Assembly (NCBI RefSeq): GCF_004010195.1
Contig: NC_057744.1
Span: forward strand, 5,428,360 to 5,492,359
Source: Chiloscyllium plagiosum
Lineage: Eukaryota
Reading direction: 5' to 3'
DNA length: 64,000 nt
The notes beneath the pieces were generated by a model. It was not told the DNA's origin, ran no database searches, and worked only from the letters and a program-made list of their open reading frames with translations. Shown piece by piece: positions 599-45,524 of this stretch. Every line of letters starts with the position of its first letter. Position 1 is the first letter of the stretch. The position numbers and the translations under genes were made by a program.

Positions 599-759
599 CA
601 CATTCAGGATCGCATAAACCATGACGTCAATGGCCACTGTCGTTGTTTTCCTCCAATCTCGTACAGGGCGGACTCCCTTGGAATAGTTGGTCATGAGATA
701 GTTCGAAAGCTGGAGTAAACTTGGTCTTGAACCTGCTGTTCGGTTTCCACTTCTCCGTC
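599..759 (-). CDS. HTR3A: 5-HT3 receptor subunit A, coding exon 2 (161 nt); gene continues beyond the left edge
   Basis: Encodes RRSGNRTAGSRPSLLQLSNYLMTNYSKGVRPVRDWRKTTTVAIDVMVYAILNV, matching the 5-HT3A GVRPVRDWRK..V.IDV.VYAILNV motif. Acceptor tttgtcag, donor gtatgt, phase 1 to 0. Confidence 0.93.
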
Positions 760-1272
760 CTGACAAAGCAAAACTCTGAATTGTAGGTGTATCATTAAGA
801 AAAAGAGAGAACTTACAGAGGGGAAGAGAAAAATACACAGTTTTGGGGGAAGAGCTGGAGTGTGAAATGAACTGCACTGCAGTTCAAAAGATCCAGCACA
901 GACCTTGAAGGGCTGAATGGCTTCTTTCCGTGCTGTACTGTTGTGTTATTCTGTGATTTATTCAATAACATTCCTGACTTCAGGGTGCCTTGAAATGCTT
1001 TACAGCTTTTTAAATACTATTTGAAGCAGTTACTATTAAATACAGAGGAAACACGGTAAATCTCCCACAGCAGCAATGAGATAATGGCGAGGTAATCTGT
1101 TTGGCTCAGGGATAACTAATTAAATGAATTTAGAAATATAACTCTAAACATGCTCAAAAATGGAGTACTCTGTGGAATGGTAAAACACACGTAGAGGGAT
1201 CTTCACATTTTCTGACTCTATTGAATAATATTATTGTGTGATTATTAGCCACAATCTCTGTCACAATCTGTG

Positions 1273-26542: not shown

Positions 26543-26752
26543 CACTGTCATCACAGATGCCCTCTTGGGTCTTAAGTGAAGTGCAGAAACTGTCTGTGGT
26601 GCTCCGATTTGAAGAAATCAGCTTCGAGACACAACACTTGGAGACAGCAGTCATGGGTTCAGCTTCCTCATTCATGCTCAGGAGCTTGGTAATTAGAATC
26701 GATTCAATCAAGCTGATCACAAGAAGGGCCATACAGACAGCAAAGAACACAC
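26543..26752 (-). CDS. HTR3B: 5-HT3B exon 8 (M3, start of intracellular loop), 210 nt
   Basis: GVFFAVCMALLVISLIESILITKLL. Acceptor ttctcag, donor GTGAGA. Confidence 0.92.
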
Positions 26753-28891: not shown

Positions 28892-29102
28892 CAATGAGGG
28901 GCGTAGACATTGCAGTAGCAGGGAGGTCATCACTCAGGTTCATCCGGAACACCGTGTATCCAAGCAGGATGCTGGATTTGAACGTTATTCGCCCACTGCT
29001 GTTCGGAGGCAGGAAGTAGCTGGTCACGTCTACCAACATCAGAAATATGCTGGGCAGCAGCAGGCTGACCACGTAAAGCAATGGCCTTCGTCTTATTACG
29101 AC
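28892..29102 (-). CDS. HTR3B: 5-HT3B exon 7 (M1, M2), 211 nt
   Basis: VVIRRRPLLYVVSLLLPSIFLMLVD..LPPNSSGRITFKSSILLGYTVFRMNLSDDLP..TPLIG. The M2 GYTVFR motif is B-type. ttgcag / gtaata boundaries. Confidence 0.95.
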
Positions 29103-30279: not shown

Positions 30280-30437
30280 ATTAAACTGAATTTGAGCATA
30301 TTCCCTCCCTTCATTATACAACGTCTCATATTTGGATGGTACAGAGAGGAGTTCCCATTCACCGTCATCTACAAACGCACTGGTGTTATTCTCAATCTCT
30401 TCATGGCTTCTCCAAAGCTTGAGATTGATGTCATTTA
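30280..30437 (-). CDS. HTR3B: 5-HT3B exon 6 (loops F and C), 158 nt
   Basis: Hand-translated: NDINLKLWRSHEEIENNTSAFVDDGEWELLSVPSKYETLYNEGREYAQIQFN. EWELLSV and AQIQFN are B-type. ttttgcag / gtaagt boundaries. Confidence 0.93.
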
Positions 30438-30962
30438 CTGCAAAACAAAAGGAGAGAGAGGTGGCAGCTGAGTGAATATCCTATGAGGAAATATTGTCAG
30501 GGCTACAGGGAAGTGGCATCAGACGGATTACTCTTTTAGAGAGCCATTACAGGCGCAATGGGCCGAATGACCTCCGTCTGTACCGTAAACGTTCCGTGAA
30601 TCTATAACTGAACTGAGTTTGCACAGTGACGAGAATGACTGTTGCATAATCTAAGTGTTTTCTTGAGGGAGCAAAATAACCAGAGTCAAGACTTCTAATG
30701 AAAAGAAACCCCTGTGAAGACATTCCTGGACATGAAACCTTTAAAGAAATGGTTTAATGTCTCTTTCTGAGTCAGCAGAGTATCCTATGTTCATTGCTTC
30801 TGGTTGTTGAAAGGAGCAGAAATAAATCCGATATCATTCTTAAGCAATAGGAAGCAGCTGTCTTTCGAAAGATGGTGCTGCAGGATGCAAAACAAAATAC
30901 TCTATGCAACAATTTTTTTTTAAAAATGGTTATTTAATGTGAAGTTGGTCTCTTCCTTATAG

Positions 30963-31016
30963 GAGAAAGTGAGGTCTGCAGACGCTGGAGATCAAAGCTG
31001 AAACTTTATTGCTGGA
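30963..31016 (-). mobile_element. 54-bp Penelope-like family 1 terminus with 15-bp TSD
   Basis: gtctcttccttatag at 30948-30962 and 31017-31031. Confidence 0.75.
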
Positions 31017-31284
31017 GTCTCTTCCTTATAGCATCCCTCTCTCTCTCTTTCTCACTTTCCAATCAGCCTCCCAATCTTTCTCTAATCTTCCCGTCACTCC
31101 CAGGAAAAAAAGGATGCTGGTTCCCAGTGAATACCAGCACCCATTCCCGGTACATGGGTGGCCCTTTCTTCTGGTCCAACTTTTGTCTTACTCCTGTTGG
31201 GACCCCAGCCTCTGCCTGAACTTCCTCATTGGCGGTGTATTTGCTGCTGGTAACTCTCGGCATTTATCGCGAAAGTAAACTTAC

Positions 31285-32712
31285 AGGGTATTGTTGCTGC
31301 AACTGCGCAAAGCATTAGGGAGACTGCATCTGGAATATTGTGGACAGTTCTGACTCACCTTACTTGAAGAGGTGCTTTGGAGTTGCTTTGGAGGCAGGTC
31401 AGAGCAGGTTCACTAGATTGGTTCCAGAGATGGGAGATTTGTCTTATGAAGAGAGATGGAGCAGTTTAGCCCTACACTCTCAGGGGTTTGGAAGAATGAC
31501 AGGAGATCTAATTGAGATACATAAGATGCTGAAGGGAATTAGCAATGTAGATGTAGAGAGGATGTTTTGCCAAATGTGGCAAGCGAGAACGAGGCGTCAT
31601 AGTTTTTTTATTTATTGATTCATTCATGGGATGTGGGTGTTGCTGGCATTTGAAGATCTAGGACCCCTCAAGAGTGGCCTCTTGGTTTGAGATCGGTCAA
31701 AAGAATCGACAAATGCGGTCTATTCAAGTTAGCAAGGGTCATTAGTTTATTGAATTAAGGTACCGTGACGCAATTCTATCCAGCAACACAGAGATTGAAC
31801 CTTCTGTGTTCCTTGGTGAAGTTGTGCAATTATATTTGAAAATTACAAATTATTTATATGTTTCTTTAGTAATAGTACAACCTTAATCACAAGAAAGACC
31901 AATCACATATAATAAGGTGATATGATTTACAGCAAGTTAATCCAATGATGTTTACTGGGAAAGGGTTCTTAATTACAAAAAAGTCCAATCAACTATAATA
32001 TGGTGATATGATTGAAGACAGGCTAATCCAATGGTATTTTCTTTAAGAAGGATATCTGATTTATGTAAATTGTCATGCCATGTATTAGTTGAAGGTTAGT
32101 TCAAATGGTCAATTAATGTGTCAGTATTCATCTTATGAAAACTCTATTGTCCTCTTAGTAGCATTTATTGCAAATCCCTAACTATCAAGTTAAGTATCAA
32201 CCACATAGCTGTGAGTCTGGAGTCATATGTAGGCCAGACCAGGTAAAGATGGCAGTTTCCTTCCCTAAAGGACATTAGTGAACCAGATAATTGCTTTCGT
32301 GGTCATGTTAGACTCTTCATGCCAGATTGTTTTTATTGAATTCAAATTCCACCATCTGTCATGGCAGGATTTGAACTTGGGTCCACAGAACATTACCTGG
32401 GGTCTTTGGATTAACAGTCCAGTGCTAATACAACTAGGCCATCACCTCTCCACAGGCAACTTAAAATTGAGATGAGTGCGAGTTACTTCTCTCAAAGGGT
32501 CGTGAATCGGTGGAACTCACTATCGCAGAGTGTGATGGATAGTGACACACTGAGTAAATTTGAAGGAGGAGAGAGACATATTTTCAACTAATGAGTTGAA
32601 TAGTTATAGAGAACAGGCCGGAGAGTGGAGGTGAAGTGGCGATGAAATCAGCCATGATCGTATTGAATGGCAGAGCAGACTGGAAAGGCTGAGTGGCCTG
32701 CTTCTGTTCTTT
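31285..32712 (+). mobile_element. CR1 3' remnant interrupted by nested insertions (about 31610-32452)
   Basis: RFTRLVPEM..LSYEER..GDLIEI.KMLKG, then resumes near 32455 with FFSQRVVN-type sequence. Confidence 0.7.
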
Positions 32713-32989
32713 GCACACAGAAAGCTGTGATGTCACCGCCCCATGTGCAGATCCTCACTGAGGCCTGTCCTGTGCTGGTCAGCTGACCTCTTGGGGCCCT
32801 ACCTGCCACTTTAGACATTATGAATAATCACTCCGTTCTATATATAGTAGCAATGTTCTCTCATTAAAATCTAGATGGGCTTTTCATCATTCATTTGCCA
32901 CGGAATAGTTGTCCTTTCTCTCAATCATAAAGGTCTGACAGGAATAAGTTGTGGCATTTTTTAAAAAAAGTCTGTATTCCTCATAAGTG

Positions 32990-33362
32990 CTGATAGAAGT
33001 ATATGAAATTATGAGAGGCATGGATAGGGTGGATAGTCAGAGTCTCTTTCCCAGGTTGGAAATGTCAATTATTAGGGGGCACAGGTTTAAGGTGAGAGGG
33101 AGAAATTTTAATGGAAATGTGTGAGGCAGTTTTTTTTAAATGCGGAGGGTGATAGGTGCCTGAAATGTGTTGCCCGAGGAGGTGGTAGAAGCATATAAAT
33201 GTCTACATGTTTAAGGCATATTTTGACAGAAACATGAATATGCAGAGAATAGAGGGTGATGGACCATGTACAGGTAAATGGGATTAGGTCAGAACAGCAT
33301 CATGGTCAGCACAGGCATGGTGGGCCAAATGGCCTGCTCCTGTGCTGTACTATGTTCTATGT
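32990..33362 (+). mobile_element. CR1/HER1 3' end
   Basis: IEVYEIMRGMDRVD coding remnant and tail. Confidence 0.8.
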
Positions 33363-34008
33363 ATTTTAAATCTGGTTATTGATCCACCTGCTAGTGAAAG
33401 CAGTTTCTCCCTGTCGACTCAATCTAAACCCCACATTACTTTCTAAAAAGATGTAGCAATTCCAAATTCAATTTAAAGTCCCGATTGGACTTCGATAGAA
33501 ATCTTTACAACAATGTGACATTGCTGATCCAACTATAGGCTGGTTTGAGGATCTACTATTTGCCTCTGCCCAATGACAATTGATTAAAGGCTTCAAACAA
33601 CTCTGCATTATCAACTTCCAATTTCACACAGTCTTAATTTCTTATTTACTTTTGACCAAAAGGTACACGCTGTTGTTGCTCGGTAAAATAACAAGTCCTT
33701 CAGAAATGGAGGGTTTGGAAAGGTACTGATTAACCACATGCATTTCCTTGAGAGTGTGAGGGAACAAGGCTTGAAGCACAGCTGTGGGAGATTATATGAT
33801 AAAAGAATGCTGAAACTCTGGAATTCCCTTCCAAAACCTCTCCATCTCAGTTCCCACTCTTAAGTTGCACCTTAAAAATTATCTTTGATTGAGTTTCTGG
33901 TCAGCTCAGCATTAAATCTTGTCTGATAATGCTCCTGTCATGTTTAGCTATGTTAAAGACACAATGTAAATGCAAGTTGCTGTTGATTATTTTTTCCTCT
34001 CTGCTCAC

Positions 34009-34178
34009 CTGTATGCAGCCAGCTACAGAATGTGAAGGTGCAGTTCTGTTTGTCAAATGGGAATGCATATATCTCCAGTCTGCAGGCGGAGACGACTTGT
34101 ATTGGTTTGTAGTTCTTAATATGCCCCGAGGAATTCACATACACGTAGGGCATGTAAGGTGATCTTCCCACATCAATA
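34009..34178 (-). CDS. HTR3B: 5-HT3B exon 5 (Cys-loop), 170 nt
   Basis: IDVGRSPYMPYVYVNSSGHIKNYKPIQVVSACRLEIYAFPFDKQNCTFTFCSWLHT, containing the C-x13-C Cys-loop. cacag / gtgag boundaries. Confidence 0.96.
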
Positions 34179-35788: not shown

Positions 35789-35898
35789 AATTCCTGGATT
35801 AATACATCAGGGATCCAAATAGATTCAATGGGCAGAGAGATTTCATTGATGCCATCAAAACTTGTAGGATTCCACTTGAGGAACTCATCCATCCATAT
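35789..35898 (-). CDS. HTR3B: 5-HT3B exon 4 (loop A), 110 nt
   Basis: IWMDEFLKWNPTSFDGINEISLPIESIWIPDVLIQE, with the WxPD motif. caacag / gtgagt boundaries. Confidence 0.94.
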
Positions 35899-38196: not shown

Positions 38197-38241
38197 CTGC
38201 TGGTACCAGATATTTGTCCTCAGCTTTTGGTTCTGGCCATC
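38197..38241 (-). CDS. HTR3B: 5-HT3B exon 3 (loop D), 45 nt
   Basis: DGQNQKLRTNIWYQQ. aatag / gtatgt boundaries, phase 0-0, typical 45-nt exon of this family. Confidence 0.92.
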
Positions 38242-39163: not shown

Positions 39164-39321
39164 CACTTCCAGCACAGCATGAAGGATGAAGTCAATGTAT
39201 ATGGTTGTAGGTTGTGTCCAGTTTTTGACTGGTCGGACTCCCTTGTTATAGTTTGTCAGTAGTTTCTCCATCAGCCGTAGTAGTGTTGAGTTTTGAAGGG
39301 ATGCAGTATAAGCAAACCCTC
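39164..39321 (-). CDS. HTR3B: 5-HT3B exon 2, 158 nt
   Basis: GFAYTASLQNSTLLRLMEKLLTNYNKGVRPVKNWTQPTTIYIDFILHAVLEV. ttttcag / gtaagt boundaries. Confidence 0.94.
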
Positions 39322-45487: not shown

Positions 45488-45524
45488 CTGAAAGCAGGTA
45501 GAGGAGGAAAAGATGCGAGACCAT
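45488..45524 (-). CDS. HTR3B: 5-HT3B coding exon 1 (signal peptide start MVSHLFLLYLLS-G)
   Basis: ATG with an upstream in-frame stop, a hydrophobic run and a perfect CAG|GTAAGT donor in phase 1, matching exon 2. Completes a 1383-nt open frame. Confidence 0.72.

What the first reader, a model, noticed from the sequence alone, without database searches (positions are those of the whole stretch)
30280..34178. This 5-HT3B keeps the principal-face agonist residues that human 5-HT3B lacks
Seen: loop B reads TFCSWLHT, loop C reads GREYAQIQF, loop A (exon 4) keeps E, loop D keeps W and loop E keeps PYVY..NYKP. Known: in 5-HT3A, loop B Trp183 (cation-pi with serotonin) and loop C Tyr234 form the principal face. 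As I recall, human 3B has SILHT and FAQIQF there and is thought to contribute little to binding. Inference: this B subunit may be ancestral-like and able to form B+/A- or B+/B- agonist sites.
Basis: partly seen in the sequence, partly recalled or inferred. Interest (0 to 1): 0.7.

Follow-up and report, generated by a model that had tools for sequence, protein, structure and literature searches.

The report
Shark 5-HT3B keeps ancestral serotonin-pocket residues
An intact shark gene for the B subunit of the serotonin-gated 5-HT3 channel keeps two serotonin-contacting aromatic residues that nearly all sampled fish B subunits keep and nearly all sampled land-vertebrate B subunits lack, but four other pocket residues differ from the A subunit, so it likely forms at most a weak or modulatory site rather than a full serotonin site.

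Summary
The motifs are real. They lie in an intact nine-exon HTR3B gene (45524-21704, minus strand, 460 aa) that groups with human 5-HT3B (100/100) and sits directly upstream of HTR3A. Human 3B has Ile and Phe where this subunit has Trp (3A W183) and Tyr (Y234). This is not special to this shark: Trp in 94 of 96 and Tyr in 95 of 96 fish 3B rows, against 1 and 1 of 137 tetrapod rows. Tyr and the M2 9' gate leucine changed at the tetrapod base; Trp was lost later, probably twice (a newt keeps it). Only 4 of 95 comparable columns behave so. Loop A Glu, loop D Trp and loop E Tyr141/143 are also kept in mammalian 3B and distinguish nothing. Against a full B+ agonist site: F226 and E236 differ from 3A in nearly all 3B rows, N128 and T181 differ here, and ray-finned 3B carries an Arg where nicotinic beta subunits block their own pocket. 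Most likely an accessory subunit with a conserved but incomplete pocket; a working B+/A- serotonin site is about one in three. Granisetron is a poor probe here. No functional study of a fish 3B was found.

The parts
45488..45524 (-). HTR3B exon 1 (ATG, signal peptide start)
39164..39321 (-). HTR3B exon 2
38197..38241 (-). HTR3B exon 3; loop D Trp77 (3A W90) at 38208-38206, Gln79 (3A R92) at 38202-38200
35789..35898 (-). HTR3B exon 4; loop A Gln115 (3A N128) and Glu116 (3A E129, 35793-35791)
34009..34178 (-). HTR3B exon 5; loop E Tyr128/130/140, Cys-loop, loop B Cys168 (3A T181, 34027-34025) and Trp170 (3A W183, 34021-34019)
   Evidence: spliced to exon 6 in one contig of run X1
30280..30437 (-). 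HTR3B exon 6; loops F and C, Leu213 (3A F226, 30321-30319), Tyr220 (3A Y234, 30300-30298), Gln222 (3A E236, 30294-30292)
28892..29102 (-). HTR3B exon 7; M1, M1-M2 loop, M2 with Gly at -1', Leu9' (28964-28962), Arg15'
26543..26752 (-). HTR3B exon 8; M3 and start of the intracellular loop
21704..21987 (-). HTR3B exon 9; MA helix without the portal arginines, M4, TAG stop
599..763 (-). HTR3A exon 2 (limits approximate); exons 3-9 of HTR3A lie beyond the window's left end in L001/L002

Best explanation
This is an intact shark HTR3B gene whose product likely serves as the accessory subunit of a 5-HT3AB cation channel with the neighbouring 5-HT3A, and whose principal face keeps the inferred ancestral loop B Trp and loop C Tyr in an incomplete pocket that likely binds serotonin weakly or not productively, so that gating would still be driven mainly from A+ faces. 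Shown: gene structure, orthology, residue states and their distribution. Inferred: after the A/B duplication the B lineage early replaced F226 (Leu/Met) and E236 (Gln/His), the -1' Glu and the MA-portal arginines; fishes kept Trp/Tyr under constraint (a structural, low-affinity or modulatory pocket; in ray-finned fish likely holding their own loop B Arg); tetrapods changed Tyr to Phe and the 9' Leu to Val at their base and lost Trp later in frogs and in amniotes.
For: Nine canonical exons, 460 aa, identical to P0005; B clade with human 3B 100/100; tandem HTR3A downstream on the same strand with a complete A-type pocket. B-type pore: no -1' Glu, Arg15', Asn17' and Leu/Thr/Asn where A has Arg/Arg/Lys in MA. 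F226 and E236 are invariant in 12 A rows but absent from nearly all B rows: Phe in 1 and Glu in 1 of 231 B rows; the F226 column changes 11 times among 62 fish rows, i.e. is unconstrained. In serotonin-bound 5-HT3A simulations the amine contacts Glu209, Thr154, Asn101 (E236, T181, N128) through water and Phe199 (F226) is a stable apolar contact (PMC7655109): all four differ here. E129, T179, S182, H185 stay almost invariant in mammalian 3B, whose B+ face does not bind serotonin (PMC3504740; PMC8584345; PMC3898987), so retention alone does not show binding. Nicotinic beta2/beta4 keep loop B Trp and loop C Tyr without binding agonist, with an Arg two residues before the Trp in the pocket (PMC11965388); ray-finned 3B has Arg there in 78 of 78 rows.
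Against: Trp changes once and Tyr never among 62 dereplicated fish rows (mean 4.3 changes per extracellular column) but 12 and 6 times among 91 amniote rows (mean 6.2); tetrapod 3B folds and works without them, so a purely structural need is doubtful. Sharks have Cys/Gly and lobe-fins Ser at 181, so the Arg explanation does not apply to them. Teleost A subunits have Gln at 181 and a hagfish 5-HT3 subunit has Gln at 236 and a B-length loop C, so those differences need not be fatal; T181A shifts serotonin EC50 only about 6-fold; N128 and E236 are described as gating or assembly residues more than contacts (PMC4220016). No binding or current was measured.
Confidence: 0.55

Rival explanations
1. 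The shark B+ face forms a working serotonin site with A- (and perhaps B-) that helps gate the AB channel; tetrapods lost this, together with the B gate leucine.
For: W183, Y234, E129, T179, S182, H185 all kept; E129 and T179 are named as the residues that give serotonin selectivity (PMC4006026). Of 95 columns invariant in A and kept in all fish B groups only 4 are lost in frogs, sauropsids and mammals: W183, Y234, L9' and one M3 Leu; the reverse pattern has 0 of 84. The easy Tyr-to-Phe change is seen in 0 of 96 fish rows but 128 of 137 tetrapod rows. No Arg blocks the shark pocket. mCPBG is reported to bind all five interfaces even in mammalian AB (review PMC8584345).
Against: F226, E236, T181, N128 differ and loop C is one residue shorter than mouse A and 3 shorter than this shark's own A. 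The Trp/Tyr pair was picked because it differs from human, so the enrichment (P 0.02 for six principal-face residues) is post hoc. Nicotinic beta subunits show retention without binding.
Confidence: 0.33
2. Shark 3B forms functional homomers (B+/B-), being an A-like, self-sufficient subunit.
For: Complementary-face W90, Y141, Y143, Y153, W195 kept; Leu9' and Asp20' as in A; the M1-M2 stretch reads SSGR in 16 of 16 chondrichthyan rows, not the CRAR of human 3B (60 of 93 mammal rows), whose role as ER-retention signal is recalled (Boyd 2003, only its title seen).
Against: No -1' Glu, and Arg15'/Asn17' in M2, the same B signature as in mammals; mammalian B forms no functional homomer; R92 is Gln in this species; HTR3A is present beside it.
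Confidence: 0.07
3. The retained cage recognises another small amine or modulator rather than serotonin.
For: The aromatic pair is kept while the polar amine contacts (N128, T181, E236) and F226 are altered; B-containing interfaces bind VUF10166 (A+B-) and mCPBG in mammals.
Against: No ligand is known; position 181 differs between sharks (Cys/Gly), ray-fins (Arg) and lobe-fins (Ser), which fits no single ligand.
Confidence: 0.04
4. The gene is a misnamed A duplicate, a chimeric model or a pseudogene.
For: Its extracellular domain is nearly as close to ray 3A (56.7%) as to human 3B (58.7%).
Against: Tree 100/100 with 3B; separate intact-looking HTR3A next door; open frame with canonical splice sites; one spliced exon 5-6 contig.
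Confidence: 0.01

Closest known systems
Human/rodent 5-HT3B (HTR3B, NP_006019.1)
   Same: Ortholog; upstream of HTR3A; loop A Glu, loop D Trp, loop E tyrosines; no -1' Glu; basic residue at 15'; no MA-portal arginines; Leu for F226, Gln for E236; same loop C length.
   Different: Trp/Tyr instead of Ile/Phe at 183/234; Leu instead of Val at 9'; Trp at 195; Cys instead of Lys at 181; SSGR instead of CRAR.
5-HT3A principal face (mouse, human, shark)
   Same: W183, Y234, E129, T179, S182, H185, Leu9'; same fold.
   Different: F226 Leu, E236 Gln, T181 Cys, N128 Gln, shorter loop C, B-type M2 and MA.
Neuronal nicotinic beta2/beta4 subunits
   Same: Non-principal subunits that keep loop B Trp and loop C Tyr (PMC11965388).
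   Different: They carry Arg two residues before the Trp; ray-finned 3B does too (78 of 78), this shark has Cys.
Fish 5-HT3B of databases (zebrafish htr3b and others)
   Same: Same Trp/Tyr/Leu9' state; zebrafish htr3b is expressed in gill (PMC12645548).
   Different: Ray-finned rows have Arg181; none found functionally characterised in the searches made.

Membership tests
HTR3B orthologs | Groups with human 5-HT3B to the exclusion of A and C/E types | tested here: met
   28-row clade, 100/100
HTR3B orthologs | Tandem with HTR3A on one chromosome | tested here: met
   A and B linked in human and fishes per PMC9977066
HTR3B orthologs | Intact Cys-loop subunit: ligand domain, Cys-loop, four helices | tested here: met
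HTR3B orthologs | B-type pore: no -1' Glu, basic 15', no MA-portal arginines (portal numbering recalled) | tested here: met
Mammalian-type 5-HT3B | Loop B Ile and loop C Phe (degenerate principal face) | tested here: not met
   Trp170, Tyr220
Mammalian-type 5-HT3B | CRAR motif in M1-M2 loop (ER-retention role recalled) | tested here: not met
   SSGR in 16 of 16 chondrichthyan rows
Mammalian-type 5-HT3B | No functional homomer; raises conductance with A | not testable with these tools
   needs electrophysiology
5-HT3A-type principal face | W183, Y234, E129, T179 | tested here: met
5-HT3A-type principal face | F226 and E236 (invariant in 12 A rows) | tested here: not met
   Leu213 (Thr212 in the HMMER register) and Gln222
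5-HT3A-type principal face | N128 and T181 | tested here: not met
   Gln115, Cys168; teleost A has Gln at 181, so T181 is not strictly defining
5-HT3A-type principal face | Binds serotonin and gates | not testable with these tools
   no ligand assay or serotonin docking available
Nicotinic beta2/beta4-type self-occupied pocket | Arg two residues before loop B Trp | tested here: not met
   Cys in this shark; Arg in 78 of 78 ray-finned 3B rows

The most novel reading that the evidence does not exclude
In cartilaginous and lobe-finned fishes 5-HT3B is a true agonist-binding subunit: B+/A- faces bind serotonin and help gate, ray-finned fish plugged the same cage with their own loop B arginine as nicotinic beta subunits do, and tetrapods dismantled it stepwise (Tyr and the 9' gate leucine first, Trp twice later), so the A+A- only rule of mammalian 5-HT3AB is a derived state.
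Probability: 0.3. Interest if true: 0.68.

Novelty: new variant of a known kind. Interest (0 to 1): 0.42.

Why it matters
The rule that serotonin acts only at A+A- faces of 5-HT3AB comes from human and mouse subunits. Fish 3B offers natural test subunits for why B became non-binding: open cage (sharks, lobe-fins), Arg-bearing cage (ray-fins), Trp without Tyr (newt), neither (frogs, most amniotes). If the shark face works, site number, stoichiometry and drug action in fish 5-HT3 receptors, zebrafish models included, may differ from mammals. If not, it is a tidy example of how an accessory subunit decays.

Tried and rejected
Primary papers on the AB binding site (Lochner and Lummis 2010, Thompson 2011, Miles 2015), the alpha4beta2 structure paper, Boyd 2003 and the 2006 review were not held; their content is taken from reviews or marked recalled. 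No 5-HT3B chain among PDB hits. No RNA holder was listed on record; of 4 runs laid, X6 covered repeats only, X7 nothing, X8 showed no exon piece in the rows printed: no evidence on expression level or tissue. The AlphaFold monomer (pLDDT 71, pTM 0.58) confirms the fold only. 34 long ORFs upstream (of 209 listed) gave no Pfam hit beyond two weak retroelement matches, so upstream gene order was not established. One search missed W183 because a chimeric bat model was in the A set; it was dropped and the count redone. Three look-ups of earlier scan findings returned nothing. No complex prediction was run: it cannot place serotonin and would pass by likeness to solved pentamers.

Full report
Observation. 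A search for GT-AG borders gave one solution: nine exons from 45524 to 21704, 461 codons with the stop, 0 mismatches to P0005, which its source names 5-HT3B of Chiloscyllium plagiosum. Pfam finds the ligand-binding and membrane domains, and the predicted monomer has the 5-HT3 fold. One 209-base contig of run X1 (guessed RNA, depth 2.6) joins 34083-34009 to 30437-30304 without a mismatch, exactly at the predicted exon 5-6 borders; it covers the Trp codon and ends 4 bases short of the Tyr codon. The other three runs gave no exon evidence.

Identity. In a 51-row maximum-likelihood tree the window's protein lies among shark 3B rows inside a 28-row clade with human 3B (100/100), apart from A (96/93) and C/E-type rows. 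HTR3A follows on the same strand: exon 2 at about 763-599, exons 3-9 beyond the window's left end, 68-100% identical to ray 3A and with the full A pocket. The gene has B hallmarks: Gly for the -1' Glu, Arg15', Asn17', and Leu/Thr/Asn where A has Arg/Arg/Lys in the MA portals (portal numbering recalled).

Distribution. Three searches (the last two list the best 120 of 602 and of 748 hits) gave 252 proteins; 10 fused models and 5 fragments were dropped (one fragment has Leu for Trp), leaving 231 B and 6 A rows, to which platypus and human 3B were added. Trp183: 16 of 16 chondrichthyan, 76 of 78 ray-finned, 2 of 2 lobe-finned, 1 of 1 newt, 0 of 25 frog (Cys), 0 of 17 sauropsid, 0 of 94 mammal rows. 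Tyr234: 95 of 96 fish rows (one gap), 1 of 137 tetrapod rows (a crocodile). Leu9': 95 of 96 fish rows, 0 of 137 tetrapod rows (all Val). A, two hagfish rows, a tunicate row and alpha7 all have the Trp, so it is ancestral. The simplest reading is Tyr to Phe and Leu9' to Val at the tetrapod base and two later Trp losses; this rests on a single newt sequence. Rows are not independent species (several isoforms and carp duplicates), the ray-finned group was defined as the remainder and holds a few rows that sources label 3A, the first search used a Trp-bearing query and favours such rows, spiny-rayed fish are thin, and birds, caecilians and lampreys are missing.

Constraint. Of 195 columns invariant in 12 A rows, 95 are kept in all three fish B groups; only 4 are lost in frogs, sauropsids and mammals: W183, Y234, L9' and a Leu at the end of M3. 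The reverse pattern has 0 of 84. The chance of two of four falling among six principal-face residues is 0.02, but the thresholds are mine and the pair was chosen for differing from human, so this is descriptive; the independent point is that the third column is the gate leucine. After dereplication at 97% (62 of 96 fish rows, 91 of 111 amniote rows), Trp changes once and Tyr never in fishes (mean 4.3 per extracellular column), against 12 and 6 changes in amniotes (mean 6.2). So the pair is constrained in fishes and released later.

Against a full site. E129, T179, S182 and H185 are nearly invariant in amniote 3B, although serotonin is held to act only at A+A- in human and mouse AB (PMC3504740, parts 1-2 of 5 read; PMC8584345, passages). 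F226 and E236, invariant in A, are Leu/Met/Ile and Gln/His in B of fishes and tetrapods alike; here also N128 is Gln and T181 Cys, and loop C is one residue shorter than in mouse A. Simulations of serotonin-bound 5-HT3A name exactly these four as contacts (PMC7655109, passages), and F226 and Y234 are both aromatic-box members (PMC4220016, PMC3537142, passages). Nicotinic beta2/beta4 keep the same Trp and Tyr in non-binding faces, with an Arg two residues before the Trp reaching into the pocket (PMC11965388, passages); query residues 15-55 of exon 5 match beta2 113-153 at equal length, placing shark Cys168 on beta2 Arg149. Ray-finned 3B has Arg there in 78 of 78 rows; sharks have Cys (14 of 16) or Gly, lobe-fins Ser.

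For a site. Tetrapod 3B works without the pair, so a purely structural need is not obvious. The shark pocket has no Arg. Teleost A has Gln at 181 and a hagfish subunit with an A-type M2 has Gln at 236 and a loop C of B length (its function is unknown). T181A shifts serotonin EC50 from 0.24 to 1.38 uM, though T181S gave no response (PMC2599823, tables). E129 and T179, named as serotonin-selectivity residues (PMC4006026, passages), are kept. A review states that mCPBG binds all five interfaces of mammalian AB (primary paper not seen). I recall that single B-to-A substitutions in mouse 3B did not alter granisetron affinity (Lochner and Lummis 2010, not seen).

Mechanism. Most likely (0.55) shark 3B co-assembles with 3A, raises conductance through its neutral portals as mammalian B does (inferred), and presents an incomplete B+ pocket of structural, weak or modulatory role. 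A working B+/A- serotonin site is a serious rival (0.33); functional B homomers are unlikely (0.07), although the human CRAR motif is absent (role recalled).

Novelty. The gene is annotated. Six searches of the held library for fish 3B function, B-subunit evolution, B+ sites or an AB structure (listings only) found no report of this pattern; the one phylogenetic study analyses the binding site of A only (PMC9977066, abstract and passages; its supplements were not opened and may hold B alignments). Subscription papers are not covered. Verdict: a real, lineage-wide ancestral variant of a known subunit, with a testable but unproven functional meaning; interest 0.42.

Noticed in passing
window 28964-28962 (M2 9'): Fish 3B keeps the gate leucine (95 of 96 rows) while all 137 tetrapod rows have Val; it changes on the same branch as Tyr234.
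   Followed up: yes
position of window 34027-34025 in ray-finned 3B proteins (e.g. P0016, P0027): Invariant Arg two residues before the loop B Trp, as in nicotinic beta2/beta4; possible convergent self-occupied pocket.
   Followed up: partly
L003 (G000:C13:63360001-63370000), minus strand: A third, C-like 5-HT3 family gene in this genome whose loop B appears to have Ile at the Trp position; not modelled fully.
   Followed up: partly
P0256, P0257, P0310, P0323: Frogs carry extra, diverged 5-HT3A-like subunits with altered loops C and D; one has Arg before the loop B Trp.
   Followed up: no
P0223 (crocodile 3B): Has Tyr at 234 and Glu at 236, unlike other tetrapod 3B; reversal, conversion from A or model error.
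   Followed up: no
P0095, P0108, fragment P0078: A catfish and an anchovy 3B row, and one unnamed fragment, have Leu for the loop B Trp: independent losses or errors.
   Followed up: no
P0001, P0002, P0003, P0040, P0222, P0225, P0226: Database models that fuse HTR3B and HTR3A exons; the bat model P0222 is a B/A chimera and can mislead alignments.
   Followed up: yes
L004:2800-4140: About 1.2 kb open in all six frames without a Pfam match, probably a tandem repeat.
   Followed up: no
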